A stretch of 64,000 nt of DNA, from sequence record NC_129898.1; one strand, given 5' to 3'. Of the stretch, positions 11,591 through 30,459 are shown piece after piece (position 1 is the first letter of the stretch; each line of letters starts with the position of its first letter). The position numbers and the translations under genes are program-made. The notes under the pieces are model-generated. The model saw only the letters and a list, made by a program, of their open reading frames with translations, was not told the origin of the DNA and did not search any database. The DNA is from a phage.

Positions 11591-11627
11591 CAAATACCTG
11601 TTGTAATTTACAGAAGGAGATGCTAAA

Positions 11628-18082: not shown

Positions 18083-18410
18083 GATATTTATGGTAGTATT
18101 TATTTTAAAATTATAAAAATTTTAGGCGATGAGGGAAAATATGTAATGGATTTTCCCTTATTTATCAGATATTTGCAGATATTTGGAAATCCTTAGAAAA
18201 TCAGAAAATGGATCGAAAACTAAAATGGATTTTTTCAAGACAGGCACGATAAGCTGCGCTGCTCATTCTATCGTTCGCACCGTACTTCAAATCACCATTC
18301 CAGATTTTCCGCACATACTCTCACCCCTCTGCCAGAACTTTCCCAACTTACCTTCAGCCTTTTATGACAATAAGTTAATTATTATCAGTAAGTTTTGATA
18401 CATCTCTCTC

Positions 18411-18590
18411 AGTACTCGATCTGTTTTTCATTTCAAAGATTGGATTTTCTGAAAATTTTTCTCGATAAATTTTTCGGTACTCGATCTGTTTTTCGTTTTC
18501 TGAATCGGATTTTCTTGAAATTGGTCCAGCACCAGATCTAAAATTTTTGGGAACGAAAGCGATTTTTCGTTTTCAGAAATGGATTTTTAA
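18411..18590 (+). repeat. tandem imperfect direct repeats (about 60-70 bp period, 3 copies)
   Basis: GTACTCGATCTGTTTTTC[A/G]TTTC...GGATTTTCT at 18411 and 18477, diverged copy at about 18559. Confidence 0.6.
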
Positions 18591-18733
18591 AATTTCTATA
18601 TGGGAATATTTTATGAGGTATTATTTTATATAGAATTGTCACGGTAGGTAATTAGCATGCTAACTAAATTTATGAAATGCGAAAAGTTCTCATTTAGAAT
18701 TTTGAATGATAATCATTCTCGTTTGCAGAATAA

Positions 18734-18758
18734 CGGGCACCCCCGGTGATTGTCTCCC
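18734..18758 (+). repeat. 25-bp element CGGGCACCCCCGGTGATTGTCTCCC
   Basis: Near-copy at 18875-18894; exact inverted copy at 27133-27158. Confidence 0.6.
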
Positions 18759-19064
18759 GGCCCCTACTGCCCCGGCTTGTTATTATAGTATCACACAGGA
18801 CAAAGAAAGCAAGAAGTTTTTGCATAAATTTTTAGACGATAATGATAATCGTTCTCATTTCATGCAGCGCCCATCCCCGGTGGTTGTCTCCCCCGTCACC
18901 GGTGCCTGCCGTCCTTTCGATATGTATATTGTGCCACCTGGCGGGGCCGCTGTCAACACTTTTCAAAAAAATTCTAACCTGATGCGCTAACCGTTGCAAC
19001 CTGGCGGGGCCAGCCTGGTGGGCCTATGCTATAGGATAGTAACAATTGAAGAGGAGGTACAAAA

Positions 19065-19181
19065 ATGGAAGGTAATATGATCCCCCTGGAAAATGTAGCT
19101 ATTAATGACGCTGAGGCTATCGCCCTGGTTGAAAAGGCTATGGCGGGAGCGTTGGAACATAAAGAAGAGTACGAAAAATGA
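19065..19181 (+). CDS. hypothetical small protein (38 aa)
   Basis: GAGGAGG RBS before ATG; below ORF-track length cutoff. Confidence 0.4.
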   Translation: MEGNMIPLENVAINDAEAIALVEKAMAGALEHKEEYEK

Positions 19182-19243
19182 CGGTTAACCTGGCAGGGGC
19201 GGCGGCTGGGGAATTTTGCCCAAAAAATAATTTTAACTAGTGG

Positions 19244-19272
19244 TTGACAGCTCGGACAGTTTTTGTTATTCT
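19244..19272 (+). promoter_or_regulatory. sigma70-like promoter
   Basis: TTGACA - 17 nt - TATTCT upstream of ORF 19326. Confidence 0.5.
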
Positions 19273-19325
19273 TATCCTCGCAAGGTGAACAACACCACAC
19301 TAATTAACAGAGAGGATAAAAAATC

Positions 19326-19523
19326 ATGAACGCCTACGGAATCAAAGTACGTCGCAGCACTCGCCAGGTGGTCACCGATCAAATGATTTGCCAGGTGGAT
19401 GTGACCATCAACAACGGGCAAGGCCTTTATAAATTCCGTCGCGGTCAGAGCTATACCCGGCAACAGCTTAATCGTTGCGCCCTGACAAAAGGCCAGATCA
19501 ACCACTGGTTTAATAAAAAATAA
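19326..19523 (+). CDS. hypothetical small protein
   Basis: Promoter and GAGAGGA RBS upstream. Confidence 0.5.
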   Translation: MNAYGIKVRRSTRQVVTDQMICQVDVTINNGQGLYKFRRGQSYTRQQLNRCALTKGQINHWFNKK

Positions 19524-19526
19524 GTA

Positions 19527-19555
19527 TTGACATATAGGCCGACACCAAATACACT
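19527..19555 (+). promoter_or_regulatory. sigma70-like promoter
   Basis: TTGACA - 17 nt - TACACT upstream of ORF 19588. Confidence 0.5.
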
Positions 19556-19587
19556 AAAAGCACAAAAGACACTGAGAGGATAAAATC

Positions 19588-19986
19588 ATGAAAACCACCA
19601 CCTTTAATTTTGATAATGCGGACTTTTCTTTTTCTGATGTCAAAAACTGCCGCCGTGATCGTGGATTTTACAAGGCCTATAATCTGGTGGGCCTGGACGA
19701 TGACAATAATTTGCACGAAGTAGCTGAGATCCGGTATTATGCCGCCGCCAGCGGGAACACTTACTACTGCGTTTTTTGGATACACGACAACAAGAACAAT
19801 AAGTACGGCTATACTGGCGGCAAGGCGAGCGGTCACGGTTACGATAAAGCTAACGCAGCACTTGAGAGCGCATTAAATGCTATGGGGATCACTGCCGACG
19901 GCTGGATCTACGAAGAAGAGTTTTTGTCGGCACTTGCTGCCCATCTAGGGTATAAAAAGCACATTGTGACATGTGCCCACGAATAA
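19588..19986 (+). CDS. hypothetical protein (132 aa)
   Basis: Promoter and GAGAGGA RBS upstream. Confidence 0.5.
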   Translation: MKTTTFNFDNADFSFSDVKNCRRDRGFYKAYNLVGLDDDNNLHEVAEIRYYAAASGNTYYCVFWIHDNKNNKYGYTGGKASGHGYDKANAALESALNAMGITADGWIYEEEFLSALAAHLGYKKHIVTCAHE

Positions 19987-20068
19987 AAATCATTGACACG
20001 CTGCAAAATTCAAGTAAACTAGACACAAAAGGCGGGAATGTTTCCCGCCAACACAAAGGAAAAAGATC

Positions 20069-20473
20069 ATGAATAAGAACGTACGCCGCATCATGAACGA
20101 GTTGGCAAACGATGAAAAAATTATTGACATGCATTTGATCAACATTTGCCGCCGTTGTGTAACATATAACAACCGCGCCGCAAAAGCGCGTGAGATGAAC
20201 GCAAAAGGCACCTTAAAGCCATTCCAGGTGGTGGTAAAGGCCATTAAAAATGTAACTAATACGGCAAACCAGGTACAGGGGAACACCAACGAGAGTACCA
20301 ATATTGATCCGGCTTACATCATGAAACGGATCCGGACCTATAAGAACAAAGAGCAAGTGTATAATGTTATAGACTGGTTGGATTCTATGGGCGACGTGGT
20401 GTACAATAGATTCTCGGCAGCTATTGAGATCCAGCTTGACAGGTTGGACGGTAAAGTACTGAAAACTTATTAA
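20069..20473 (+). CDS. hypothetical protein (134 aa)
   Basis: Promoter 19992-20019, hairpin GGCGGGAATGTTTCCCGCC, CA-rich leader, RBS. Confidence 0.5.
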   Translation: MNKNVRRIMNELANDEKIIDMHLINICRRCVTYNNRAAKAREMNAKGTLKPFQVVVKAIKNVTNTANQVQGNTNESTNIDPAYIMKRIRTYKNKEQVYNVIDWLDSMGDVVYNRFSAAIEIQLDRLDGKVLKTY

Positions 20474-20521
20474 GTTTATTTTTAGATGGCCTTGACTCTA
20501 GGGCCATCAATAAAGTAAACT
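20474..20521 (+). repeat. conserved intergenic hairpin/promoter-like module (copy 1 of 4)
   Basis: ATTTATTTTTAGATGGCCTTGACTCTAGGGCCATCAATAAAGTAAAC; stem GATGGCC/GGCCATC with TTGAC in loop. Confidence 0.55.
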
Positions 20522-20553
20522 AGTCTCAACTAAGCGAAAAAGGGGGCTTTAAG

Positions 20554-20673
20554 ATGAGCACTACACGCCAATACACAAAGGTAACTATTATCGTTTGCGT
20601 TGTCGGTTACATCCTGGCGCAAATGTTAATGAGTAGCGCCAACAGTTTTGCAAAATTTTTCTTAAATTTTTAA
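20554..20673 (+). CDS. hypothetical small membrane peptide (39 aa)
   Basis: AAAGGGGG RBS; hydrophobic core. Confidence 0.35.
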   Translation: MSTTRQYTKVTIIVCVVGYILAQMLMSSANSFAKFFLNF

Positions 20674-20701
20674 TTGACAAGTAAATCTCAATAAGTATAC
20701 T
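20674..20701 (+). promoter_or_regulatory. sigma70-like promoter
   Basis: TTGACA - 16 nt - TATACT; near-identical promoter at 22512-22539. Confidence 0.55.
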
Positions 20702-20752
20702 TAAACACGTAAACGGGAAAACTTCCCAGAACACACAAAAGGAGAAAACACC

Positions 20753-21094
20753 ATGACTACTATGACCGCCGCAGAAAAAGCTATGCAGATCGCCGCGCTG
20801 AAAAAACAGATCGCAGACCTTGAGAACAAGATCGATAACTTTGAAATCGACGAGGACAAGTACGACGAAAACTATAATGAATGGCTAGACGAGATCCACG
20901 GCGAAATTATGATCGGTAACATTTCTTTTCTTCCGTCGCGTATCCTCAAAGAGTTAGATCCTATTGCTTACCGCTGCGGATTTAGCGATTACATCGATAG
21001 CCTGGATATTGAGGACGATGAAGAGTACCAAGAATTGCAGATAGAGCTGGGAGAAGTGAAAGAGGAGCTTTCAAAGCTGGAAGAGAACGAGTAA
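20753..21094 (+). CDS. hypothetical acidic coiled-coil protein
   Basis: Promoter, hairpin, leader, AGGAGA RBS. Confidence 0.5.
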   Translation: MTTMTAAEKAMQIAALKKQIADLENKIDNFEIDEDKYDENYNEWLDEIHGEIMIGNISFLPSRILKELDPIAYRCGFSDYIDSLDIEDDEEYQELQIELGEVKEELSKLEENE

Positions 21095-21095
21095 A

Positions 21096-21143
21096 ATTTA
21101 TTTTTAGATGGCCTTGACTCCAGGGCCATCAATAAAGTAAACT
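21096..21143 (+). repeat. conserved intergenic hairpin/promoter-like module (copy 2)
   Basis: Near-identical to 20474-20521. Confidence 0.55.
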
Positions 21144-21181
21144 TTACACTGTTAACACTGAACTAATGAGGAGTTAAAACT

Positions 21182-21427
21182 ATGGCAGCACTAATCACCA
21201 AATATTATGCGCCTACCAACACAAAAAGCGCCCGTATCATGGTAAAAGGCTTCGGACGTAAAAAGGTTTACGCCTGGGACTATTCCCTAGATATGGAAGA
21301 CAATTATACCAACGTAATGACCGATTTTATTAATGATCTGAATAAACAGATCTTAACCGACTACAAAGTGACCGATATTGCTTACATAGGTGAAGGCGGG
21401 ATCTGTTTTGTAGGCATTGTGAAATAG
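21182..21427 (+). CDS. hypothetical small protein
   Basis: GAGGAG RBS. Confidence 0.5.
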   Translation: MAALITKYYAPTNTKSARIMVKGFGRKKVYAWDYSLDMEDNYTNVMTDFINDLNKQILTDYKVTDIAYIGEGGICFVGIVK

Positions 21428-21470
21428 TTATTTTTCGGTGGTCCTGGTTGCAGGGCCATCTATAAAGATA
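21427..21470 (+). repeat. conserved intergenic hairpin module (diverged copy 3)
   Basis: TTATTTTTCGGTGGTCCTGGTTGCAGGGCCATCTATAAAG. Confidence 0.4.
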
Positions 21471-21502
21471 ATTTATTAACACCATGAAAGGAGAAAGTAC
21501 AC

Positions 21503-21856
21503 ATGATCAGCGGGGCTAGTTTTATTATTGGCGCTATTGCTACGGCTTTAATTGTAAACAAGATCCAGGATAAAAAGGAAAGAGGAAGTACCGCCCTTGC
21601 AGAATATCCATTTTGGACATTTAACGATAACGAAGATTATATTATAAAGTATAAAAATAAAGAAGGCGACCAAGTAACACCGCGACCGATCCCGGCTTAC
21701 AAAATGCAGGAAACACTATACCGCTTGGAGGCGGGGGGCGCAAAAATTGTTGACTTTTGGGGATACGACCACACAGATCAGGAAGTTATAAAGCGCCGTA
21801 TCCGGGCTATTCAGGCCAATATTGAGGTTAACAAGGGGGGAATATATGAAAATTAA
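21503..21856 (+). CDS. hypothetical membrane-anchored protein
   Basis: N-terminal hydrophobic helix; AAGGAGA RBS. Confidence 0.5.
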   Translation: MISGASFIIGAIATALIVNKIQDKKERGSTALAEYPFWTFNDNEDYIIKYKNKEGDQVTPRPIPAYKMQETLYRLEAGGAKIVDFWGYDHTDQEVIKRRIRAIQANIEVNKGGIYEN

Positions 21857-22043
21857 TTTCGAGAAAATTGTAAAGCGCCCTCATGATTCCGAAGAGTTGC
21901 CAGAACGCCGACAGCGCAACAATAAACTGAATAAGCCAAAAAGGTTTGGGAAGATCTGGCGGAATCATTATGATCGTAAATTGCCCGGCCTACTTTTGGA
22001 ACGTGAACGACAGGCAGAACGATACCGCCATAAAGACAAATAA
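21846..22043 (+). CDS. hypothetical basic small protein
   Basis: ATG 21846 after AAGGGGGG; Arg/Lys-rich. Confidence 0.4.
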   Translation: MKINFEKIVKRPHDSEELPERRQRNNKLNKPKRFGKIWRNHYDRKLPGLLLERERQAERYRHKDK

Positions 22044-22051
22044 CAACCAAC

Positions 22052-22080
22052 GCCCCGCCATTGTGCGGGGCTTTTTATTT
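22052..22080 (+). terminator. intrinsic terminator
   Basis: CCCCGC-CATTGT-GCGGGG hairpin followed by CTTTTTATTT. Confidence 0.55.
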
Positions 22081-22261
22081 CTATCCTACGAATAGCGCCC
22101 CTGGTTGGCCCTGTAAGCGCCAAAAAGGCCCCCACCTATGCAATCGCCCCCTTTAACCTGAAAACATCGCTCAGGGCCGTTTTATAGCGTTAAAAATATC
22201 ATTGACATCGTCAACAGGTTAGCTATACTAACCACATCAAAGAGAGAAAGGAGTAAACGCC

Positions 22262-22522
22262 ATGCGTAAATTAAAAAATTTTGATAAAGTTGATGTTATC
22301 CTGAATAATTTTTACTACTGCAACAACAAGGCTATTTGGTGGCGGGATAGTTCCACCGATAAAGTCAAGGCGCGCTTTCTTCAGGGGCACTGGCAAGGCC
22401 GCCCAGTGATTAAAATCATGGGGCAATTGGTAGCGTTTAAAAATTGCCGCCGTGTTGATGACGTTGAGGAGATTTTAAACATTTTGCGCCACAATAATTT
22501 AAAAAATAGTGTTGACAAGTAA
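22262..22522 (+). CDS. hypothetical small protein
   Basis: Promoter-like TTGACA at 22203; GGAG RBS. Confidence 0.45.
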   Translation: MRKLKNFDKVDVILNNFYYCNNKAIWWRDSSTDKVKARFLQGHWQGRPVIKIMGQLVAFKNCRRVDDVEEILNILRHNNLKNSVDK

Positions 22523-22539
22523 ATCTCAATAAGTATAAT
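22512..22539 (+). promoter_or_regulatory. sigma70-like promoter (consensus -10)
   Basis: TTGACA - 16 nt - TATAAT; followed by hairpin GGCGGGAAAACTTCCCGCC. Confidence 0.6.
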
Positions 22540-22596
22540 TAAACACACAGGCGGGAAAACTTCCCGCCACTAACAAAGAAAACAGGAGAAAATATC

Positions 22597-23220
22597 ATGA
22601 CCACCGTTAACATTACCACAGGTTACAATTTATCTTTCGACGTGCTGACCGACGAACAAAAAGAAAAAGCCATTGAAATGGTCCGCGAAAGAGAAGAACG
22701 CAGCGGGGATGATTTTTTCGCAGAAAATGTAATTGATTACTACAAAGAATATATCTTTCCAGAGTACGGCCTTGAGGATACCGAAGTACATTGGTCCGGC
22801 TTTTGGTGTCAAGGCGATGGCGCATCGATTAGTGCTGAAAATGTAGACTTAGAAAAATTCTTGCGTAAAGTCAAGGCCCTGACCAAGTTCAGATCAATTC
22901 GTCACTTGTTCGGCACAATGCACGATGGCGAACTATCCGCCAGTGTTGAACGCGACAAGTACAGCCATTACAGCCATGAAAACACTGTAAGCGGGTACAT
23001 TGATACCACTTGGATAGATCTGACCGCCAAACAAGAAAACAAAGTGGAAGATCTGGAAGAATTGATCACCGAGACGGTACGGGAGCTATCCCGCAAGGTT
23101 TACGTAGACCTTGAGGAGGCCTATCTAGAACAGTTCACCGCAGAAAACCTGATCGGCCTTATTCAGGCCAATGATTGGCGGTTTGATGTCGATGAATATG
23201 GTGAGATGACTTTTTCATAA
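22597..23220 (+). CDS. hypothetical acidic protein (207 aa)
   Basis: Largest ORF of the small-gene block; promoter, hairpin, leader, AGGAGA RBS. Confidence 0.55.
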   Translation: MTTVNITTGYNLSFDVLTDEQKEKAIEMVREREERSGDDFFAENVIDYYKEYIFPEYGLEDTEVHWSGFWCQGDGASISAENVDLEKFLRKVKALTKFRSIRHLFGTMHDGELSASVERDKYSHYSHENTVSGYIDTTWIDLTAKQENKVEDLEELITETVRELSRKVYVDLEEAYLEQFTAENLIGLIQANDWRFDVDEYGEMTFS

Positions 23221-23313
23221 ATAAAGTGTTGCAATAACCTAAAAACCTGCTATATTAAAACTCAAGGCGGGCGAGACGTTTGCCCGCCAACACAAAACAA
23301 AGAGGATAACATC

Positions 23314-23694
23314 ATGAAAAATACTACCAAGGCTATTGACACCGTTATGTTTAACCTGGTTACATTCCGTGAAGATATGAAAGATCTTCCGCGTGAAACA
23401 GTGTGCGACCATATCGAAAACTATCGCAAACTAATCAAAGAGTTGCCTTTAAAACGTGATCAATATGCGGCTAACGCCATGCTTAATGCCATGATCAAAA
23501 AGATGATCCAGTGTGATTTAACCCTGGCCTATGATTATGCAGGCGGTCGTTTTGCAGTATACAATCAGCCCGTGCCCGGTATGAGTACCACCGAAGAATT
23601 GCACGCGCTCAATCTAAAACAGGACGTGTGGGATAGTATGCCTCGCGTGGTGGTATGGGTAGAAAGCGGAAAGATTTACGGCGATAATTTTTAA
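23314..23694 (+). CDS. hypothetical protein (126 aa)
   Basis: Promoter-like TTGCAA/TATATT, hairpin GGCGGGCGAGACGTTTGCCCGCC, RBS. Confidence 0.5.
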   Translation: MKNTTKAIDTVMFNLVTFREDMKDLPRETVCDHIENYRKLIKELPLKRDQYAANAMLNAMIKKMIQCDLTLAYDYAGGRFAVYNQPVPGMSTTEELHALNLKQDVWDSMPRVVVWVESGKIYGDNF

Positions 23695-23758
23695 TCAGGT
23701 AGCAGGCGGCATATTTGCCGCCTTATTGTTGATCAGAACTGCAAAAGAGGTACATAGA

Positions 23759-24130
23759 ATGGAATTTATTATTTTGGCTGTATTGGTTGCCTTATTTAAC
23801 GCCTGGATCGCTGGCAAGATGGGAAGATCCGCCTTTTTATGGTTTATTATATCTATTTTCCTGGGGGTGGTTGCAACTATTGTATTGGTTATCCTTGCAA
23901 TTGTTGACAAGGGGAATAATAGAAAGGGTAAAGTATTTTCAGACCTGTACGACGCTCAAACTTTTGTTAACGCCTATTATAGTGATCTCCCAGTCTCCCT
24001 ACGTTGCAGCCTTGCACAACAGGTTTTCGATGAAGCTAAAACCAGAGACCACGCCCATGAGATTTGTTTAACTGAGGCGGATCGCTTATTTGAGAGGAAT
24101 AGAAAATATGTGGGCCAGCCGTTTAAATAA
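23759..24130 (+). CDS. hypothetical membrane protein
   Basis: Two predicted TM helices; ATG 23759 after AAGAGG. Confidence 0.45.
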   Translation: MEFIILAVLVALFNAWIAGKMGRSAFLWFIISIFLGVVATIVLVILAIVDKGNNRKGKVFSDLYDAQTFVNAYYSDLPVSLRCSLAQQVFDEAKTRDHAHEICLTEADRLFERNRKYVGQPFK

Positions 24131-24349
24131 TACCACGTTAATTAATCCATTTAGTGAAGATTTGAGGCCAGCCGCCTGGCGGGATGGATTCAATAACGAA
24201 AAATTTACTTTTAGGCCTGATCTTGAGGAATTTTATAACAATGGATCGAACAACGACAGAGATAATTTTTCTTGCGGTGTGTGTCGTGATCGGACTACTG
24301 GGAGCCATTGCAAACCACGTAACCGCTAACAGAAGGAAAGGGGGAGACG

Positions 24350-24469
24350 ATGACACCCAAGGATAAGCCCCGCACCGATAAGGCGCGCCGTGTTATGGTA
24401 TGGCTGGAGATCATCGCCCTTGAAATATTGTTAGGCGTAGGGATGTATTTTATCGCCGTACGTACCTGA
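24350..24469 (+). CDS. hypothetical small membrane peptide (39 aa)
   Basis: AGGGGGAG RBS; hydrophobic C-terminus. Confidence 0.35.
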   Translation: MTPKDKPRTDKARRVMVWLEIIALEILLGVGMYFIAVRT

Positions 24470-24615
24470 TAACGGCCCCCGATCCCTGGGGGCCTGACTT
24501 TTTTCAAAAAAATTTTTCTTCCGGGGTGTTGCAATCCGGTCCGGGATATGGATAATAACAATCAACGGGGAGACACTCCCCACCACACAGACAAAGTTCC
24601 AAAAGGAGAAACAAA

Positions 24616-24816
24616 ATGAGCAACAATATCCGCGTTATTAATTTCAAAAAAGAAGAAAAAATCGCTGTGCTGGTTGATGGTCAAGAAATATTCAAGGGGT
24701 ATTATGAAGATCATCAGGCGGCGATCAGTATTACCCGCGTAATTGGTTACCATAATTTTTACCCTCAAGGCGCTGAGGCAGCAGTAAAACGAATTAAAGA
24801 GATCGTAGGCCTGTAA
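24616..24816 (+). CDS. hypothetical small protein
   Basis: Hairpin GGGGAGACACTCCCC, CA-rich leader, AAGGAGA RBS. Confidence 0.5.
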   Translation: MSNNIRVINFKKEEKIAVLVDGQEIFKGYYEDHQAAISITRVIGYHNFYPQGAEAAVKRIKEIVGL

Positions 24817-24817
24817 A

Positions 24818-24866
24818 ATTTATTTTTAGATGGCCTTGACCCCAGGGCCATCAAATAAAGTAAATT
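24818..24866 (+). repeat. conserved intergenic hairpin/promoter-like module (copy 4)
   Basis: Near-identical to 20474-20521. Confidence 0.55.
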
Positions 24867-24908
24867 TAAACCCTGCTAAAATAATCAGTGCAAAAAGGAG
24901 CAATGATC

Positions 24909-25208
24909 ATGTTTATACCCGCCAATAATCTTTATTTCTTTGATGGTCAGATCGTAGACGGCGTGGAAGTTGAGATCACTGGATGTCAAGGCGGCCAGGT
25001 AATGATCTTCCGCAATAGTGCCTTTAACGATCATTTTATTACAATGACTGTGGAAGTTAAAAAGCTGGATGATAAGAAAACACTCATTGACTATTCCGTG
25101 AAAGATCATCCAGACTACCACATGATCTATGGTGATTTGTGCATTGTTGACCGTGACAAGGTGGGCGGCATTGTGATCGCTATTGTGAACGATGTTTTCT
25201 CTGAATAA
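24909..25208 (+). CDS. hypothetical small protein
   Basis: AAGGAG RBS; start ATG 24903 or 24909. Confidence 0.45.
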   Translation: MFIPANNLYFFDGQIVDGVEVEITGCQGGQVMIFRNSAFNDHFITMTVEVKKLDDKKTLIDYSVKDHPDYHMIYGDLCIVDRDKVGGIVIAIVNDVFSE

Positions 25209-25430
25209 TTCCGGCAAATGATGCAAAATAAGGCCCATGGCAGGGCCTGCAGCGATATAATCACACAAAGGCTATGCGGTTGCATGGCCTTTTTTATTTT
25301 AGCGCTACAGCGGCCCCCAAGGCGTTTAAAAAATTTTTAAAAGTACTTGCATCAAGTCCGACAATATGGATAATAAGACTTATCAGGGGGCGGCCCCCAA
25401 TCATTAACCGGATAGATAGGAGTTAAAATC

Positions 25431-25715
25431 ATGGCTATTGTTACTGTTGGCGATGTAGTAGAAATGGAAGCAAAATACTTAAAAGCGGGTATGCATATCC
25501 TACGCAACGATCTTGAACTAGTCCTGACAATGGTCGACTATAATCCCGGTCAGGATTATCCAAGCATCGACTACTTTTTCCAGTATGTTGATGAAGAATT
25601 AAAAGAGGATGAGGCTTATCAGGGTGAATTTTGTAATTTCTTTTGCCCTGACGAGATTGTAAAAGTTATCTATCAACCTGGCGTACCTTTCCCGTTGCAC
25701 GCCATCAATAAATAA
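25431..25715 (+). CDS. hypothetical small protein
   Basis: Hairpin GGGGGCGGCCCCC, leader, AGGAG RBS. Confidence 0.5.
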   Translation: MAIVTVGDVVEMEAKYLKAGMHILRNDLELVLTMVDYNPGQDYPSIDYFFQYVDEELKEDEAYQGEFCNFFCPDEIVKVIYQPGVPFPLHAINK

Positions 25716-25778
25716 GCCTGGCGGGGCCGAAAAAGGCCCCTCCTGAAAATATGAAAAAATAAAGATAGGTGAATCATC

Positions 25779-26012
25779 ATGATGGAACAAATTAAACGCG
25801 CTGAGGCTATTAATGGTAATGTGATCTATTTTGTCAGCAAAAACGAAAAAGGCGTACCCTATGCGGCGGTAATAGTACAGCCTGACGGCGATTATTGGTG
25901 CACTGTGTACGGCGCTTATTCTTTTGGGCGTCCAGTGCATGATAAAATTTTGAAAGTAGCGAACCCTACCGGGAAAAATATCACAGCAGAAAAATTTTTT
26001 GAAAATAGTTGA
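25779..26012 (+). CDS. hypothetical small protein
   Basis: ORF after hairpin GGGGCC-GAAAAA-GGCCCC. Confidence 0.45.
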   Translation: MMEQIKRAEAINGNVIYFVSKNEKGVPYAAVIVQPDGDYWCTVYGAYSFGRPVHDKILKVANPTGKNITAEKFFENS

Positions 26013-26076
26013 CAACAAACAACAATCTAACAAAGCATAATACATAAGGCGGCAATGATGCCGCCAACATGACAGA

Positions 26077-26340
26077 ATGAGAAACATCATTTACAGACTG
26101 ACAAAACGCAACATTATGATCGCCACCGTGATCGCTTGCCTTTTCGCTTTCGTGAGTAACGCAACGTTTAACGCCGTGGGCGGGGCGATGTTTAATGCTG
26201 GCAGCGTTTCAACAGCTAACACAATGATCGATTGTTTGCAACTTTTCTTTTATGTTGCCTTTCGTTTAAAAATAGCTTGCAAGGTAGACCGTTTTGATTT
26301 ACCTTTCATTTGTGGCGGCGTGATCGCTATCGTATGTTAA
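26077..26340 (+). CDS. hypothetical membrane protein
   Basis: Hydrophobic segments; hairpin GGCGGCAATGATGCCGCC upstream. Confidence 0.45.
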   Translation: MRNIIYRLTKRNIMIATVIACLFAFVSNATFNAVGGAMFNAGSVSTANTMIDCLQLFFYVAFRLKIACKVDRFDLPFICGGVIAIVC

Positions 26341-26613
26341 GGATCAGAAGATGGGAAAACTCTCAATTCTGTTGTTTTATCAAAAACCTTGACAATATCA
26401 GAATGTACAGACGGTTAAAAATAATTGTTGACACCAGGCGCGGATCTGGTAAAGTGTACGACATAGGGCGGGGCAATAAGGCAACGCCCATTAATGATGG
26501 TGGAATCATGTTAGAAAAAATTTTCACGGTTGTAGTAGTTGGCATGGCATTATCGGTTGGAGTGGTTGCAACTATGGCTAACATGATCCTATCTTCCCAC
26601 GGTATCGGGTAAG

Positions 26614-26838
26614 GTGAAACAAATGATCACGAACAAAACAGGGAAAACGGAATTTTTACGCGGCTTGCAAATAGGCAAGCCTGAGATCTGGCATTGCACT
26701 AAAACACCACGTGACGAAATGAAAGACTTTACCGCCACGCTGAAGCGGGTAAAAATATCCATTACGCAGAAAAAAGCCTTGATAGTGGTGGAAGGTGAGA
26801 TCCCTCAAACCGTTGTTATTGTTGAGCGTACAGCATAG
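26614..26838 (+). CDS. hypothetical small protein
   Basis: ORF; start GTG 26614 or ATG 26623. Confidence 0.4.
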   Translation: MKQMITNKTGKTEFLRGLQIGKPEIWHCTKTPRDEMKDFTATLKRVKISITQKKALIVVEGEIPQTVVIVERTA

Positions 26839-26927
26839 TTTAATCTATACCGTACGCCCCATTGACTAACAAAGCATAAGCAGGCGGCGGTGACCGCCTT
26901 GAACGCAACAGAAAGAGAATAGAAAAC

Positions 26928-27062
26928 ATGAGAAAGATAATTATTACCATGGGGATCGTGGCGGCAATGTTGGCGATCTTTCCCTTTATGGTTAGGTATG
27001 TGCTGATCAGTGTTGTCCTGATAGGCAGTGATCTATTGGAAACGGTTGGCAACTGGTTTTAA
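26928..27062 (+). CDS. hypothetical small membrane peptide (44 aa)
   Basis: Hairpin GGCGGCGGTGACCGCC, leader, AGAGAA RBS; hydrophobic. Confidence 0.35.
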   Translation: MRKIIITMGIVAAMLAIFPFMVRYVLISVVLIGSDLLETVGNWF

Positions 27063-27132
27063 GATAATAAACAGGGCTTGAAATGGTCCTGTTTTTTGTT
27101 ATACTTATCTCACGGGTGGCACCTGGCGACGG

Positions 27133-27158
27133 GGGGAGACAATCACCGGGGGTGCCCG
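27133..27158 (-). repeat. inverted copy of the 25-bp element at 18734
   Basis: GGGGAGACAATCACCGGGGGTGCCCG is the reverse complement of the 18734-18758 element. Confidence 0.6.
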
Positions 27159-27265
27159 TTATATAAAAAACTATAAAAACAGTTGACATCTGCCAGGTGG
27201 TTAGGTAACATTTATCTTGAAGGGGCAAAAGTGCCCACACAACAACCGGAAGAGAGGAAAACATT

Positions 27266-27538
27266 ATGTCAAGCTGGATTAATCAAGAAATCGAATCACG
27301 TTTTAATGCTATTTGGGATCTCATCGAAAAAGAGGACGGAACATCAAGCCCTTATCTCAATAACCTGGAATTTCATTTTGTGGAAGCGATGAACGCAGAA
27401 CATGATCACGAAGGTGGCGCGGATGAGTTCGCTCAAGGGTATGGCTTCAACAATGCCAACGAAATGATTGAGGCGGTTGTACTTCAGGCTGAGGAAGATT
27501 ATCAATTAAAAACACTTGAATTTTGCCGCCGTAAGTAA
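27266..27538 (+). CDS. hypothetical acidic small protein
   Basis: Promoter TTGACA 27184, hairpin GGGGCAAAAGTGCCC, leader, AGAGAGGA RBS. Confidence 0.5.
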   Translation: MSSWINQEIESRFNAIWDLIEKEDGTSSPYLNNLEFHFVEAMNAEHDHEGGADEFAQGYGFNNANEMIEAVVLQAEEDYQLKTLEFCRRK

Positions 27539-27599
27539 TAAGATAATGACACTGGCCAAAAGGCCCACCAAACCAGAACCCCATAAAGAGGAAAACATC

Positions 27600-27863
27600 A
27601 TGAAACGCCTTGATCAGCTCAAACTAGTTCAGTACATGGCCTACAAAGTTATTGAAGTCCAAAAAGGTAGTAAAAAGGAGGTTTGCGAGAAAGCGTACAA
27701 GATCTTTACTCGTAAAAAAGATGATTGGATGTTGCGCCAGACCAAAAAGGCTGATATCCTGGGGTACCTGGAAGAAGAGATCCGGCTTGAAGAGCAAGAA
27801 GAGATCCGCCGAAGTGAGGCAGATTATCAGGCAGCTTGGGAAAGCTGGATGAGCAACAAATAG
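27600..27863 (+). CDS. hypothetical small protein
   Basis: AAAGAGGA RBS; last gene of + arm. Confidence 0.5.
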   Translation: MKRLDQLKLVQYMAYKVIEVQKGSKKEVCEKAYKIFTRKKDDWMLRQTKKADILGYLEEEIRLEEQEEIRRSEADYQAAWESWMSNK

Positions 27864-27877
27864 TACAACATTATCAA

Positions 27878-27906
27878 GGGGCCTTAAGGCCCCTTTCTTT
27901 TTTGTT
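27878..27906 (+). terminator. intrinsic terminator ending the + strand arm
   Basis: GGGGCC-TTAA-GGCCCC hairpin followed by TTTCTTTTTTGTTTT. Confidence 0.7.
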
Positions 27907-28511
27907 TTCTCTTTTCCTACCATAAACGGCCCCGCCTGGCAAGTGGAATAATTAACGAGCCATCAATCCCGCACACTGTACAAATATACATGTAAAATAG
28001 TTATTGCATAACCTTTCATTGTGTGGTAGCGGTGCTATTTTTACCTGTTTTCTCTCCCAAAATTGCACGTAATGCAGCTATTGCACAAAATTTAACCTGA
28101 TGCACATCTTCAGTATACTGTCAACAATTAAAAACCCTTATAAGTCATACACTTACACAAACCAAAAAGCGCGTCCTACGTGAAAAATCGGGTGTAACTA
28201 TAGCCGACAGATCTCAGAATCCACGTACGATCACCATTCTATAGCCTGCAAAGTATTTATTCCAACCACAGAATAACGGAATAGTCAATACCTGTACAAA
28301 ATAATTATTCGTACAAACTGCATAACATAAACCTGCCCAGGTGTCAACATTTTTCGTAAACAGTTAGAAATTGTCACGATAGGTTACTATAATCAGAGAA
28401 ATATTTAGTCGTCTAATGTTTACTGTACATAACTATACTGACTGGAATCATTAGATGACTAAGAGAAAGATAAGAAATAGTTAACAATGTAATTGTTTTA
28501 CCTGTAACAAT

Positions 28512-28688
28512 AAGGCAACTATGCAAACGAATGGCATGGCGCGACGGAGTCGCGACATAATATAAAAGCAGTAACAATCACCCCCGTGATAGTTTGTCTG
28601 CAATCTATTAATCAGATCATAGTTGCCTTGTATTTAGTTAATCATGACATAACAAGCAAGGCAACTATAGATCTTCTAATAGTTGCCC
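28512..28688. repeat. paired inverted repeats AAGGCAACTAT / ATAGTTGCC
   Basis: AAGGCAACTAT at 28512 and 28658; reverse complement at 28619 and 28679; palindrome GCGAC-GGA-GTCGC at 28541. Confidence 0.6.
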
Positions 28689-28761
28689 TGCTTTTATATT
28701 ATGTCATAGAAACGCCCGAAGGGGTGACCTAGTCACCTGGCATAGCCAGCGAAATATTATT

Positions 28762-28821
28762 AACTTGTTAATTGTCAGCTTGTTGGCTGTTAGCTTGTCA
28801 ATTGTTAACTTGCTAATTGTT
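28762..28821. repeat. tandem 15-bp repeats (4 units)
   Basis: CTTGTTAATTGTCAG / CTTGTTGGCTGTTAG / CTTGTCAATTGTTAA / CTTGCTAATTGTTAA, contiguous. Confidence 0.65.
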
Positions 28822-30459
28822 AAACTCGGGAGCATAGCCCTCGTCTCAAGGGTGTTATCATGCAAACGAATGTCATGGCTTATCATCTATGCGTAAACTG
28901 TCAGGGTGTAGACTATTCAGGCGTAAACAGTCTATGCGGGAACAATCTATACGTGAACAGTGAAATATGAAATAATAACAGTCGTTATTGTATCGAAAGT
29001 GTATAAGGTGTCAGATTATGGCATATTGTGTGACATTGTGTCAGACAAGTTTTTCTCCTCTTTGTCAAGTGCTGCATGGAAAATTTACAATCTGGTATGG
29101 TAGCATTTTTGCGGCCCTGTTTACATTCAGGAGTGTATGTATAACCCTTGTTGTGTGGGCGTTTAGACGTCTGGACGGTCAGAAGTCTGCAGGTTAATAT
29201 CTAATCTATTGGTCGCTAACTATATCCCCCACAAATAATAAGAAATGCAATTGTTATATGCGTAAACAGTAACTCATGTTATCAATCCCTGTATGTATCG
29301 CCAGTGGTGCGCATAATGGGTATTATGTTAAATTGCCCGTAATGATAACAGTTCTCACAATGATAGGTATTCTCATTCACCCCCACAAAATAGATTGCAA
29401 ATGTTGTGCCACTGTGTGAACGGCCTCGCCTATTAATTTGCCTCACTGCTCCGATATTTGAGAATTGTTATAAGAATGAGAAGTATTCCCATTTCGTCCG
29501 CCTGGCAGCGCTCCTGTAGGTCAGGTCAAAATCGTGGTAGAACTGGACCCCTTCAGATATTTCTAGCTGACTCTTCAGGCCTGTGTGGGAAAAGCCAACC
29601 TCTCCGGCGGGGCAGGGGGGTCAATTAAAAAATTTACGTAGGGTACGAAGCGCTCTTCAGGTAAGGCATGTATTAGAGGATGAAACCCTCTTCAGGTGAT
29701 GATATTTGTGGGTGTGATATTTGCTGGAAAGCCAGATATGACGGGACTACCGGCGGGGATGGGGTAGTATAGGCAGGGAAAATGTGGAGAATGTGGTTGG
29801 TAAATTTATCAGGCAGGTAGAGTATGGGATATGTTACAGGTATGTTAAATATGGAGGTAGGATATTTGTAAGATTTGTGTGTAAAATCAAAGACTTAAGT
29901 GGTGTTGTGGTATTTTCTATAAATAATTCAAGTTTAATAGGTAATATTTGTCTCTATCCACTTTGTGGGGTAAACAGATTCTAATTGAATTGGTTTACAA
30001 GTGTATATAAAGTATACAAATTAAAGATATAAGAAACCCCCCTCCCCCTTCGGCTACCATTCACCTTTTCCTCTGACTGGTACTTAAACACTTATTCAGA
30101 CTCTTCAGGTTATCACCCATATACTATATGGCAGTGACTGGTGTCCTCTGGCCCCTCTTTCGTCACCCGTCCGCTTCGCCATGCTAATGCCATAGCTAAA
30201 GGTTCGGTTGTTCACCCTGTTCACTCAGGTGTATCTCCATACCCCTTCAAACCGAAGAGAACAGAAAACCCGAATTACTCGGTAAAAGAAAAGAGAAGAA
30301 CTTAATTTTATCAGGATAGGCAAGAATGTCAAGGCATGACTGCTCACTAAACAAGCAAACAGTCATGTGTGGGAGGTAAGTGATTGTGGTGGTAGGAAAT
30401 TTAGTTGAAAGATGTGTTATAGGTGCTTCCAGCACTTTAGCCGGGCAGCTAATTGTGTG

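What the first reader, a model, noticed from the sequence alone, without database searches (positions are those of the whole stretch)
19065..27906. Block of about 25 tiny genes each with its own promoter, 5' hairpin and CA-rich leader
From 19 to 27.9 kb nearly every ORF (34-207 aa) is preceded by a sigma70-like TTGACA/TATAAT-type promoter, then a GC-rich stem-loop without a U-tract (for example GGCGGGAAAACTTCCCGCC at 20030, 22550), then an AACACAAA-like leader and RBS. The rest of the window lacks obvious promoters. This looks like a host-RNA-polymerase-read early or accessory region; none of the products is recognisable. A weaker hairpin-leader layout also precedes the methyltransferase (148-165) and polymerase (about 5690) genes.
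Basis: seen in the sequence. Interest (0 to 1): 0.65.

Follow-up and report, generated by a model that had tools for sequence, protein, structure and literature searches.

The report
Promoter–hairpin gene cassettes in rV5-like phage
This stretch of an rV5-like E. coli phage is a swap-prone block of small unknown genes, many with their own host-type promoter plus a conserved stem-loop; this layout is already known from T4-like phages, so it is a real but fairly ordinary feature.

Summary
The window is a Vequintavirus (rV5/FV3-like myovirus, 96% identical to FV3). The block at 19–27.9 kb holds 25 small plus-strand ORFs. All 20 tested fall in PHROG families of unknown function.

- About 14–15 of the 25 genes have their own near-consensus sigma70 promoter.
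- Ten promoters or gene starts are followed by a G-first GC-rich hairpin about 10–11 nt after the -10, with no T-tract and an A/C-rich leader.
- Four other promoters have the hairpin wrapped around the -35.
- Five or six ordinary T-tract terminators also lie in the block.
- The claim that the rest of the window lacks promoters is wrong.

The promoter-then-hairpin pairing is far above chance (6 strict cases against 0.04 expected) and recurs, more regularly, in phi92-like phages. Promoter hexamers and stems are as conserved as codon positions 1–2, while spacers and loops drift.

Homology breakpoints with relatives fall inside the cassettes. This matches the PeSL promoter-early stem-loop cassettes of T4-like phages, here in other phage lineages and with the stem-loop placed in the transcribed leader.

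The hairpin's molecular role is inferred, not shown; I favour mRNA-end protection or insulation. Interest is modest.

The parts
19065..27895 (+). Hyperplastic block of 25 small ORFs. Coordinates: 19065-19181, 19326-19523, 19588-19986, 20069-20473, 20554-20673, 20753-21094, 21182-21427, 21503-21856, 21846-22043, 22262-22522, 22597-23220, 23314-23694, 23759-24130, 24108-24329, 24350-24469, 24616-24816, 24909-25208, 25431-25715, 25779-26012, 26077-26340, 26508-26612, 26623-26838, 26928-27062, 27266-27538, 27600-27863.
   Evidence: ORF lists and start contexts. 20 of 20 tested match PHROG families of unknown function and none passes Pfam. The block is orthologous to rV5 ORF197-165 and FV3 ORF181-155.
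19993..20049 (+). Class A cassette: TTGACA-16-TAAACT (19993-20020), then hairpin GGCGGGAA-TGT-TTCCCGCC (20031-20049), then AACACAAAGG leader; serves gene 20069.
20674..20727 (+). Class A cassette: TTGACA-16-TATACT (20674-20701; the upstream stop codon abuts the -35), then a weak 5-bp hairpin GGGAA-AAC-TTCCC (20715-20727); serves gene 20753. From the -10 onward it is shared at 94% with the Justusliebigvirus KKE7M.
22512..22568 (+). Class A cassette: TTGACA-16-TATAAT (12/12; it lies inside the 3' end of the upstream ORF), then hairpin GGCGGGAA-AAC-TTCCCGCC (22550-22568); serves gene 22597.
   Evidence: The cassette is 92-100% identical in most of 113 Vequintavirus records.
23229..23288 (+). Class A cassette: TTGCAA-16-TATATT with TGn, then hairpin GGCGGGCGAG-ACG-TTTGCCCGCC (23266-23288); serves gene 23314.
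   Evidence: Orthologous hairpins differ by loss of a whole C-G pair and by G.T to A-T.
24529..24581 (+). Class A cassette: TTGCAA-16-GATAAT, then hairpin GGGGAG-ACA-CTCCCC (24567-24581), then ACCACACAGACAAAG leader; serves gene 24616. It directly follows the terminator at 24474.
25347..25398 (+). Class A cassette: TTGCAT-16-GATAAT (weak -35), then hairpin GGGGG-CGG-CCCCC (25386-25398); serves gene 25431. It follows the terminator at 25267.
   Evidence: (repeat family D8)
26009..26065 (+). Hybrid cassette: TTGACA (26009-26014; the upstream stop codon TGA lies inside it), CATAAT at a 21-nt spacer (promoter doubtful), then hairpin GGCGGCA-ATGA-TGCCGCC (26048-26065); serves gene 26077. The 5' half is rV5-type and the 3' half is FV3-type.
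26428..26489 (+). Class A cassette: TTGACA-16-TAAAGT with TGn, then hairpin GGGCG...CGCCC (26466-26489); serves the 34-aa ORF 26508-26612 and gene 26623. The module 26446-26836 is 91% identical in KKE7M.
26882..26899 (+). G-first hairpin AGGCGG-CGGTGA-CCGCCT before gene 26928; no properly spaced sigma70 promoter found upstream.
27183..27236 (+). Class A cassette: TTGACA-17-TAACAT, then hairpin GGGCA-AAAG-TGCCC (27223-27236), then ACACAACAACC leader; serves gene 27266. It follows the terminator at 27069.
20474..20521 (+). Class B cassette B1: hairpin GATGGCC..GGCCATC (20485-20508) with the -35 TTGACT in its loop, and -10 TAAACT (20516-20521); serves gene 20554.
   Evidence: (repeat family D1)
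21096..21143 (+). Class B cassette B2: hairpin 21107-21130, -35 at 21114, -10 at 21138-21143; serves gene 21182. It is a direct repeat of B1, 622 bp away.
21428..21472 (+). Class B cassette B3 (degenerate -35): hairpin 21437-21460, -10 GATAAT 21467-21472; serves gene 21503.
24818..24866 (+). Class B cassette B4: hairpin 24829-24852, -35 TTGACC, 19-nt spacer, -10 TAAATT; serves gene 24909.
19244..19272 (+). Promoter TTGACA-17-TATTCT (TGn); no strong hairpin; serves gene 19326.
19527..19555 (+). Promoter TTGACA-17-TACACT with a short hairpin-free leader; serves gene 19588.
22202..22229 (+). Promoter TTGACA-16-TATACT with a short hairpin-free leader; serves gene 22262.
22052..22079 (+). Canonical intrinsic terminator: C-first stem GCCCCGC/GCGGGGC followed by TTTTTATTT.
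23704..23731 (+). Weak terminator-like hairpin AGGCGGCA-TATT-TGCCGCCT followed by TATTGTT.
24474..24504 (+). Canonical terminator GGCCCCC..GGGGGCC followed by TGACTTTTTT.
25267..25300 (+). Canonical terminator (11-bp stem followed by TTTTATTTT).
27069..27102 (.). Terminator hairpin followed by TTTTGTTAT; possibly bidirectional. Its loop carries a TTGAAA -35-like hexamer.
27876..27905 (+). Terminator AAGGGGCC..GGCCCCTT followed by TCTTTTTTGT, which closes the block.

Best explanation
The block is the hyperplastic accessory region of an rV5-like phage, probably expressed early. It is built from compact gene modules of 64-93 nt of control sequence plus one to three small ORFs. Each control cassette has, in order: the upstream stop codon, an A/T-rich stretch, a near-consensus sigma70 promoter for the unmodified host RNA polymerase, a G-first GC-rich stem-loop, an A/C-rich G-poor leader, a Shine-Dalgarno sequence and ATG.

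In the commonest form the stem-loop starts 10-11 nt after the -10. It would therefore be transcribed as the first structure of that gene's mRNA, about +3 to +6 from the start. It would also lie inside, or at the 3' end of, any transcript reading through from upstream.

My best reading has three parts:
(a) The stem-loop acts in RNA as an end-protecting or insulating hairpin. It shields the 5' end of its own mRNA and blocks 3' exonucleases on upstream read-through RNA. It is not an intrinsic terminator.
(b) The unstructured leader keeps the ribosome-binding site open.
(c) The repeated cassettes serve as homologous crossover points through which gene modules are lost, gained and exchanged, even between phage subfamilies.

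This is the behaviour described for PeSL (promoter-early stem-loop) cassettes of T4-like phages.

Shown here: the anatomy, its excess over chance, purifying selection on hexamers and stems, and crossovers inside cassettes. Inferred: transcription start sites, early timing, and the stabilising role of the hairpin.
For: Identity and context
- The window is 96% identical to phage FV3. The block is orthologous to rV5 ORF165-197.
- The rV5 record annotates sigma70 promoters here, and the literature describes sigma70 promoters in Vequintavirinae, in CB7 concentrated in the small-ORF region.

Excess over chance
- 6 strict promoter-then-hairpin cases against 0.04 expected in the block, and 10 against 0.06 in the equivalent phi92 block. 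There are 0 and 1 in the other 53 kb of the window.

Fixed geometry
- 48 distinct cassettes were collected from 8 loci. The distance from the -10 to the stem has a mode of 10-11 nt, and loops are 3-5 nt.
- The 5' arm has G:C = 194:46. The tail after the hairpin is 55% A and 12% T.
- There are 23 different stem sequences with G-C, C-G and A-T alternatives at the same stem positions.

Selection across 7 Vequintavirus genomes
- Invariant fraction: -35 0.95, -10 0.94, spacer 0.66.
- Class A stems 0.96, class B stems 1.00, loops 0.41.
- Codon positions 1, 2, 3: 0.92, 0.94, 0.73.
- Fisher tests: stem against loop p = 1e-6; hexamers against spacer p = 5e-10.

Orthologous hairpins keep pairing
- They differ by co-deletion of a C and its partner G, and by G.T to A-T.

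Not merely a stop for upstream transcription
- 3 of the 4 promoters that directly follow a canonical T-tract terminator still carry the hairpin (24529, 25347, 27183).
- True terminators in this phage are built differently, with C-first stems plus a T-run.

RNA folding
- In folds of the predicted 5' UTRs the hairpin is a self-contained module.
- The -15 to +3 region is mostly unpaired, with mean unpaired probability 0.4-0.8, similar to that of the hairpin-free leaders (0.4-0.9).

Recombination at cassettes
- Phage 'ime' has one hybrid class B cassette where the window has B1, a 622-bp two-gene module, and B2.
- After gene 25779-26012, FV3, rV5/EdH4/Mangalyan and the window carry three different gene contents. 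The junctions lie at the TTGACA and in the hairpin's 5' arm.
- KKE7M, from another subfamily, shares 20673-21141 at 94% identity. Its junctions lie between -35 and -10 on the left and just after the -10 of the next cassette on the right. It also shares 26446-26836 at 91%.

Resemblance to PeSL
- RB49 intergenic regions read directly show the same build: A/T-rich stretch, TTGACA, G-first hairpin, TATAAT, CA-rich leader, GGAG, ATG, in 57-87 nt.
- The PeSL papers describe subclasses with the stem-loop overlapping the -35 or lying downstream of the -10.
Against: - No transcript 5' or 3' ends or timing data exist for this phage group in the library searched. Start sites, and therefore the claim that the hairpin is transcribed in its own mRNA, are predictions.
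- With a start 7 nt after the -10, 3-5 nt would remain unpaired at the 5' end. That may still allow RppH or RNase E access.
- RNase E is reported to bypass simple orthogonal stem-loops readily when scanning (PMC9943677). A strong stabilising effect is therefore not assured.
- My test for G.U against A.C pairs at stem edges did not favour an RNA-level structure (4 against 10). G-first polarity is the same on both strands, so RNA-level against DNA-level action is unresolved.
- The PeSL authors found that one such stem-loop reduced downstream lacZ expression about as much as rrnB T1. The EdH4 record annotates these hairpins as terminators.
- Three promoters lack hairpins, and two or three hairpins lack a convincing promoter.
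- Breakpoints at gene boundaries are partly expected anyway, because crossovers inside genes are selected against.
Confidence: 0.6

Rival explanations
1. The hairpins are transcription terminators or attenuators. They would stop or damp read-through from the upstream gene and throttle the very strong promoters, as the PeSL authors proposed for T4-like phages.
For: - The EdH4 GenBank record annotates the same hairpins as putative terminators.
- A PeSL stem-loop lowered lacZ expression about as much as rrnB T1 (PMC2839356).
- Class B hairpins lie upstream of their own start site, so they would be seen only by read-through RNA.
- There is no separate terminator between most genes, whose intergenic regions are 64-93 nt.
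Against: - There is no U-tract: the 14 nt after the stem are 55% A and 12% T.
- Canonical terminators in the same block have a different build, with C-first stems plus T-runs.
- Class A hairpins lie downstream of the -10, so they would also stop their own gene's transcript.
- 3 of 4 promoters placed right after a real terminator still carry the hairpin.
- The spacing to the -10 is fixed at 10-11 nt. A stop signal for upstream RNA would not need that.
Confidence: 0.2
2. The hairpin is an RNA operator for a phage or host protein, or a DNA site for one. Candidates are a nut/boxB-like antitermination site, or a translational or stability regulator that switches the whole set of early mRNAs off or on together.
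For: - The same stem, GGCGGGAA(A)...TTTCCCGCC, recurs many times at a fixed place after the promoter in two phage subfamilies. In phi92-like phages the loop is also nearly constant (TGG or ATGG).
- Stems are as conserved as codon positions 1-2.
- The block contains several real terminators that an antiterminator could override.
Against: - Across cassettes there are 23 different stems and many different loops.
- Loops are the least conserved class among Vequintavirus orthologues, 0.41 invariant. This argues against sequence-specific loop recognition.
- No boxA-like companion motif was seen.
- No candidate binding protein was identified: all products are of unknown function.
- A site before nearly every gene is unlike nut sites, which occur once per operon (established knowledge of lambda N/nut).
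Confidence: 0.1
3. The hairpins have no function in expression. They would persist only because they provide homology or secondary structure for recombination, or because whole cassettes were copied together.
For: - Cassette families are repeated within the block (D1, D3, D4, D8).
- Crossovers map inside cassettes.
- Fixed spacing could be inherited by copying.
Against: - The initially transcribed sequences between the -10 and the stem differ widely while the spacing is kept.
- Stems are invariant while loops and spacers drift.
- Orthologous changes preserve pairing.
- Together these point to selection on the structure itself, not just on shared sequence.
Confidence: 0.07
4. The hairpins are promoters for a phage-encoded RNA polymerase of the N4 virion type, which recognises small DNA hairpins with a 5-7 bp stem and 3-nt loop.
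For: The stem and loop sizes (5-10 bp, 3-5 nt) resemble N4 early promoter hairpins. This is a resemblance recalled from memory, not a test.
Against: - Each hairpin sits just downstream of a conserved sigma70 promoter whose hexamers are under selection.
- The largest ORFs in the window are 809, 771 and 692 aa.
- The CB7 paper reports no RNA polymerase gene in that phage, and the rV5 paper attributes all 33 predicted promoters to the host sigma70 type.
Confidence: 0.01

Closest known systems
PeSL (promoter-early stem-loop) cassettes of T4-like phages RB49/phi1, PST/T4 and nt-1/KVP40 (Arbiol et al. 2010, PMC2839356; Comeau et al. 2014, PMC4122927)
   Same: - Compact intergenic cassettes (57-93 nt) with the order: stop codon, A/T-rich stretch, near-consensus sigma70 promoter, G-then-C stem-loop, CA-rich leader, SD, ATG.
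- They are clustered in a variable region of small ORFans.
- Several positional subclasses exist, including a stem-loop overlapping the -35 and a stem-loop downstream of the -10.
- Indels and replacements between relatives have their junctions inside cassettes.
   Different: - The host lineages are Vequintavirinae and Stephanstirmvirinae, not T4-like phages. No paper in the searched library links PeSL to them.
- The dominant form here puts the stem 10-11 nt after the -10, so it is predicted to be transcribed as a 5' leader hairpin. In RB49 it is mostly between -35 and -10 or over the -10. In PST and nt-1 it is upstream of the promoter.
- Promoter, terminator and mini-circle activities were measured for PeSLs and not here.
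5'-terminal stem-loops that stabilise E. coli mRNAs (ompA, papA; Emory, Bouvet and Belasco 1992, as listed in the reference list of PMC3997798)
   Same: A stable hairpin lies within a few nucleotides of the predicted 5' end, followed by an unstructured leader and the ribosome-binding site.
   Different: - The function is untested here.
- The predicted 5' single-stranded tail (about 2-5 nt) is at the limit of what I recall as protective.
- RNase E can bypass simple stem-loops while scanning.
Terminal host-takeover or early regions of large lytic phages (the SPO1 host-takeover module, T5 pre-early region, T4 early ORFan clusters); from my own knowledge of these systems
   Same: - Many small genes of unknown function sit behind strong host-type promoters.
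- In phi92 the equivalent block lies about 1.1 kb from the annotated right terminal repeat.
   Different: Timing and host-takeover function are not shown for this block. No product has a recognisable function.
Lambda nut/boxB antitermination hairpins
   Same: A small RNA hairpin lies shortly downstream of early promoters.
   Different: Here there is one per gene rather than one per operon, no boxA-like partner, variable stems and loops, and no N-like protein identified.

Membership tests
PeSL cassettes (T4-like phages) | Strong sigma70-like early promoter with near-consensus -35 and -10 | tested here: met
   Promoters score 9-12 of 12 in front of about 14-15 genes. There is an excess over shuffles. 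The hexamers are 94-95% invariant against 66% for spacers.
PeSL cassettes (T4-like phages) | A/T-rich stretch upstream of the -35, often containing the upstream stop codon | tested here: met
   The 15 nt upstream of the -35 average 76% A+T, against 57% for the window. Stop codons abut or lie inside the -35 at 20671 and 26006.
PeSL cassettes (T4-like phages) | Stable stem-loop with a G-run followed by a C-run, placed in or next to the promoter | tested here: met
   The 5' arm has G:C = 194:46 over 48 cassettes. Positions found: after the -10 (10 cases), around the -35 (4 cases), and one -10-in-loop case at 10303-10340. Both main positions are among the five published subclasses.
PeSL cassettes (T4-like phages) | Clustered in hyperplastic regions and flanking ORFans | tested here: met
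   Strict cases number 6 in the 8.9-kb block against 1 in the other 53 kb. All products are of unknown function. Gene content differs between close relatives.
PeSL cassettes (T4-like phages) | Insertions, deletions and replacements between related genomes have junctions inside cassettes | tested here: met
   The 'ime' deletion lies between B1 and B2. There is a three-way replacement at 26009-26048. The KKE7M module junctions lie within promoters. Only a handful of genomes were examined.
PeSL cassettes (T4-like phages) | Measured promoter activity, terminator or attenuator activity of the stem-loop, and mini-circle formation | not testable with these tools
   Needs reporter fusions and inverse PCR on infected cells or virions.
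PeSL cassettes (T4-like phages) | Sequence homology to the RB49/phi1 cassettes (common descent rather than analogy) | tested here: not met
   A BLAST search with the cassette finds only Vequintavirus orthologues. RB49 cassettes read directly share the layout but not the sequence. I file this as the same kind of element, not as a homologue.
Intrinsic (Rho-independent) terminator | GC-rich hairpin immediately followed by a U-rich tract | tested here: not met
   Class A and B hairpins are followed by A-rich sequence with 12% T. Six other hairpins in the block do meet this feature and are listed separately as terminators.
5'-terminal mRNA-stabilising stem-loop | Hairpin within a very few unpaired nucleotides of the transcript's 5' end | tested here: inconclusive
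   The stem begins 9-12 nt after the -10 in most cassettes. That gives about 2-5 unpaired nt for a start 6-9 nt after the -10. The true start sites are unknown.
5'-terminal mRNA-stabilising stem-loop | Hairpin lengthens mRNA half-life in an RNase E/RppH-dependent way | not testable with these tools
   Needs a rifampicin chase with stem mutants.
Phage N4-type hairpin promoters | Phage-encoded or virion RNA polymerase, with hairpins upstream of start sites and no sigma70 promoter | tested here: not met
   The hairpins follow conserved sigma70 promoters. No giant ORF is present in the window. The CB7 paper reports no RNA polymerase gene in that relative.

The most novel reading that the evidence does not exclude
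The conserved hairpin at about +4 may be a shared RNA operator. A phage- or host-encoded factor would recognise it on every early mRNA of rV5-like and phi92-like phages. Through it the factor would switch the whole accessory gene set on or off together, by timed decay, translational shut-off or antitermination. The same cassettes would double as a common recombination currency that lets unrelated large coliphages trade early genes.
Probability: 0.1. Interest if true: 0.6.

Novelty: new member of a known kind. Interest (0 to 1): 0.33.

Why it matters
If confirmed, PeSL-type promoter/stem-loop cassettes are not a peculiarity of T4-like phages. They would be a general way in which large lytic coliphages package, express and exchange small accessory genes.

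- The 91-94% identical modules shared between a Vequintavirus and a Justusliebigvirus, with junctions inside promoters, point to cassette-guided gene traffic between subfamilies.
- This gene class is where anti-defence and host-takeover functions are usually sought.
- Practically, the cassettes give ready-made, compact and apparently strong expression units, and predictable deletion or insertion points for engineering rV5-like therapeutic phages.
- They also warn annotators not to label these T-less hairpins as terminators without evidence.

It does not open a new mechanism.

Tried and rejected
- **G.U against A.C pairs at stem edges**, to decide between RNA-level and DNA-level structure. The result was 4 against 10, confounded by the A-rich and C-rich flanks, so it is not informative. 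I also realised that G-first polarity is unchanged by reverse complementing, so it says nothing about strand.
- **Rfam.** There is no family hit in the block or its flanks.
- **Orthologous upstream regions from IMG/VR.** Only 5 loci were found. They were useful qualitatively but too few for statistics.
- **BLAST with an 88-nt cassette**, to map its spread. It finds only Vequintavirus orthologues.
- **tBLASTn of gene 27266**, to link the block to RB49. RB49 was not among the 40 of 147 records listed, whose distant members are T1-like and other phages. I read the RB49 variable region directly instead.
- **Literature.** I searched for transcript maps of Vequintavirus or phi92, and for any mention of PeSL with these phages. 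I found none.
- **RNase III sites.** Rejected because the stems, 5-10 bp, are too short by established knowledge of RNase III substrates.
- **Minus-strand terminators.** The scan flags five of the hairpins as terminator-like on the minus strand because the complement of the CA-rich leader is T/G-rich. However, there is no >=10/12 minus-strand promoter inside 19-28 kb (the nearest is at 18956), and phi92 cassettes lack T-rich complements.
- **Cruciform formation.** Considered unlikely for such short arms; this is inference.
- **RNAalifold on the repeated GC-rich element at 27134.** It gave no double-sided covariation.

Full report
**What the window is.** Megablast of 19000-28000 finds 245 phage records. 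The best is Escherichia phage FV3 (99% coverage, 96.2% identity), followed by many rV5-like phages of the genus Vequintavirus. The block corresponds to rV5 ORF197-165 and FV3 ORF181-155, all annotated 'hypothetical protein'. GC skew and ORF orientation show plus-strand genes up to about 28 kb and minus-strand genes from about 30 kb. The rV5 GenBank record already annotates several 'Sigma70-type promoters' in this block. The EdH4 record annotates several of the hairpins as 'putative transcriptional terminators'.

**Checking the genes and promoters.** I defined 25 plus-strand ORFs of 33-207 aa with Shine-Dalgarno sequences between 19065 and 27863.
- Fourteen to fifteen have their own promoter scoring at least 9 of 12. 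These include 12/12 at 22512 and 11/12 at 20674 and 22202.
- Eight are overlapping or operonic, or have no credible promoter.
- Promoter-like sites on the plus strand number 28, against 10.3 +/- 3.1 in dinucleotide shuffles.

**Checking the rest of the window.** The claim that it lacks promoters is wrong. Matches of at least 10 of 12, co-oriented with the genes, occur all along both arms. They include perfect matches at 10303, 16070 and 45593, and those regions also exceed their shuffles. This agrees with the rV5 paper, which reports 33 sigma70-type promoters spread over the genome.

**What is special about the block: the hairpins.** GC-rich hairpins are about twice as dense in 20-28 kb as elsewhere, and they are intergenic. 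They fall into three classes.
- **Class A, ten cases.** The stem starts 9-12 nt after the -10. Its 5' arm is G-rich, no T-tract follows, and an A/C-rich leader comes next. The hairpins are at 20031, 20715 (weak), 22550, 23266, 24567, 25386, 26466 and 27223, plus 26048 and 26882, whose promoters are doubtful.
- **Class B, four cases.** These are 61-nt repeats in which GATGGCC...GGCCATC encloses the -35 TTGACT (family D1).
- **Class C, five or six cases.** These are ordinary terminators with C-first stems and T-runs (22052, 24474, 25267, 27069, 27876, weakly 23704).

**Contrast with promoters elsewhere.** Promoters outside the block, and three inside it, have short hairpin-free leaders of 26-36 nt from the -10 to ATG. 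Class A leaders are 48-59 nt.

**Is the pairing more than chance?** With a strict rule, promoter-then-hairpin occurs 6 times in the block against 0.04 expected (maximum 1 in 200 shuffles). It occurs 0 times in window 1-19 kb and once in the 34.5-kb minus-strand region.

**The same anatomy in another subfamily.** The equivalent small-gene block of phi92 (Stephanstirmvirinae) lies about 1.1 kb from its annotated right terminal repeat. There, about fourteen intergenic spacers of roughly 80-92 nt read: TTGACA, N16-17, TAnnnT, about 11 nt (typically ATCACATAG), GGCGGGAAA-TGG-TTTCCCGCC or GGGCGGCA-ATAG-TGCCGCTC, then leader, SD and ATG. That is 10 strict cases against 0.06 expected.

**Geometry over many cassettes.** Over the window and seven related loci I collected 48 distinct class A cassettes.
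- The distance from the -10 to the stem has a mode of 10-11 nt.
- Loops are 3-5 nt.
- The 5' arm has G:C = 194:46.
- The next 14 nt are 55% A, 17% C, 16% G and 12% T.

There are 23 different stems, with G-C, C-G and A-T alternatives at the same positions.

**Evidence of selection.** I aligned the collinear 6.2 kb of seven Vequintavirus genomes and scored the fraction of invariant columns.

| Class of position | Invariant fraction |
|---|---|
| -35 hexamer | 0.95 |
| -10 hexamer | 0.94 |
| Promoter spacer | 0.66 |
| Class A stems | 0.96 |
| Class B stems | 1.00 |
| Class A loops | 0.41 |
| Codon position 1 | 0.92 |
| Codon position 2 | 0.94 |
| Codon position 3 | 0.73 |

Fisher tests give p = 1e-6 for stem against loop and p = 5e-10 for hexamers against spacer. 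Orthologues of the 23266 hairpin differ by loss of a C together with its pairing G, and by G.T to A-T. So the hexamers and the pairing are maintained by selection, while sequence between them drifts.

**What the hairpin probably does.** If transcription starts 6-9 nt after the -10, the class A stem begins at about +3 to +6. Each promoter's own mRNA would then start with this hairpin.
- Folding the predicted 5' UTRs shows a self-contained hairpin and a largely unpaired ribosome-binding region.
- Three of the four promoters that sit immediately after a canonical terminator still carry the hairpin (24529, 25347, 27183). It is therefore not simply a stop for upstream read-through.
- It lacks a U-tract and is built the opposite way round from the phage's real terminators.

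I therefore favour an RNA-level role. The hairpin would be a 5'-end-proximal protective or insulating stem-loop for its own mRNA. It would be a 3' exonuclease block for upstream read-through RNA. The G-poor leader would keep the SD accessible.

**Caveats on that reading.** This is inference, and there are several reasons for caution.
- RNase E is reported to step past simple stem-loops when scanning (PMC9943677).
- A 2-5 nt 5' tail may still admit RppH.
- My G.U against A.C test was uninformative.
- The PeSL authors measured a strong drop in downstream lacZ for one such stem-loop.

**Cassettes as crossover points.**
- *Deletion in phage 'ime'.* It lacks the 622-bp module (genes 20554-20673 and 20753-21094) that lies between class B cassettes B1 and B2. 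It has a single hybrid cassette, with the left flank matching B1's and the right flank matching B2's.
- *Three-way replacement.* Downstream of gene 25779-26012, whose stop codon lies inside the TTGACA, FV3 has an extra gene and two cassettes. rV5, EdH4 and Mangalyan have a different gene and other cassettes. The window has neither gene, only a hybrid cassette with an rV5-type 5' half and an FV3-type hairpin 3' half.
- *Exchange between subfamilies.* The Justusliebigvirus KKE7M shares window 20673-21141 at 94% identity although the flanks are unrelated. The left junction lies between -35 and -10. The right junction lies just after the -10 of the next class B cassette. It also shares 26446-26836 at 91%.
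- Other breakpoints among Vequintaviruses fall at 25222, 26014, 26941, 27069, 27594 and 27870, all intergenic or at cassettes.
- Some clustering at gene boundaries is expected in any case. Even so, junctions inside promoters and stems are what cassette-mediated homologous exchange predicts.

**Comparison with what is known.** The closest described system is the PeSL (promoter-early stem-loop) of T4-like phages. These are strong sigma70 promoters with G-then-C stem-loops in hyperplastic ORFan regions. They show promoter and attenuator activity and mediate modular shuffling and mini-circles. Five positional subclasses are described, including a stem-loop overlapping the -35 and one downstream of the -10.
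- I read the RB49 variable region directly. Its 57-87 nt spacers have the same order of parts and even a CA-rich leader (ACACACATACCGAAACGAA). The hairpin there lies between -35 and -10 or over the -10.
- There is no sequence homology to the cassettes here.
- No paper in the searched library connects PeSL with rV5-like or phi92-like phages.
- The sigma70 promoters of this region are already published.

**Verdict.** The feature is real and non-random. It is best filed as a new instance, in other phage lineages, of a known kind of regulatory and recombination cassette. Its distinguishing point is that the stem-loop sits in the transcribed leader at a fixed distance from the -10. The hairpin's function and the early timing remain to be shown experimentally.

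Noticed in passing
window 18838-18856 and 18701-18719; L003 (phi92) 1165-1236, 11616-11634, 12497-12515; L004 1699, 13129, 14011: Fur-box-like sequences occur in the non-coding DNA just upstream of the block. GATAATGATAATCGTTCTC matches 17 of 19 positions of the E. coli Fur consensus, with 0.07 such matches expected by chance. They are conserved at the orthologous place in six Vequintavirus loci. Several copies flank the small-gene block of phi92-like phages, one of them inside the phi92 terminal repeat. This hints at iron/Fur-responsive transcription in a lytic phage. No paper was found.
   Followed up: partly
window 18730-18758 (+), 18858-18894 (+), 27134-27162 (-): A GC-rich element of about 30-37 nt (AATAACGGGCACCCCCGGTGATTGTCTCCC) is present three times, including a perfect 29-nt inverted pair 8.4 kb apart that brackets most of the block. 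The minus-strand copy, together with the hairpin at 27069-27094, could be a small RNA of about 95 nt with a C/U-rich loop (fold z-score -3.0). It has no Rfam match, and RNAalifold found no double-sided covariation in 8 loci.
   Followed up: partly
window 18083-19064, especially 18402-18587: About 1 kb of non-coding DNA carries three 47-nt iteron-like direct repeats spaced 65-74 nt apart. phi92 has comparable repeats in its own non-coding stretch. This may be an origin or another cis-acting site.
   Followed up: no
window 8146-8433: Rfam group I intron hit (RF00028, 75.6 bits, E = 2e-17). It begins at the very end of the 809-aa polymerase-like ORF 5732-8161, so the polymerase gene may be interrupted.
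   Followed up: no
window 10303-10340: Outside the block, a 12/12 promoter has its -10 TATAAT in the loop of a 9-bp hairpin (GATAGGGCC...GGTCCTATC). This is the arrangement most common in RB49 PeSLs.
   Followed up: partly
window 26508-26612; L003 9316-9439: A 34-aa hydrophobic ORF (MLEKIFTVVVVGMALSVGVVATMANMILSSHGIG) is conserved at 90% nucleotide identity in phi92, where that stretch is annotated as intergenic. It is probably an unannotated small membrane peptide.
   Followed up: partly
window 25256-25300: A TATAAT hexamer is followed by CACACAAAGG and then a hairpin that does carry a T-run. It is either a relic cassette fused to a terminator or a very short transcript. EdH4 and slur16 have an extra gene inserted next to it, at 25222.
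   Followed up: no
window 20671-20679 and 26006-26014: Stop codons of upstream genes abut or lie inside the next gene's -35 hexamer (TAATTGACA; AGTTGACA). At 22512 the whole promoter lies within the 3' end of the upstream ORF. This is extreme packing of coding and control sequence.
   Followed up: yes
window 27896-29500: An AT-rich (39% GC) non-coding stretch lies between the two convergent gene arms and has promoter-like sites on both strands. Several GenBank records of relatives (EdH4, HdK5, bov10K2, YN3) start within 1-2 kb of the block's end, so a genome terminus may lie here.
   Followed up: no
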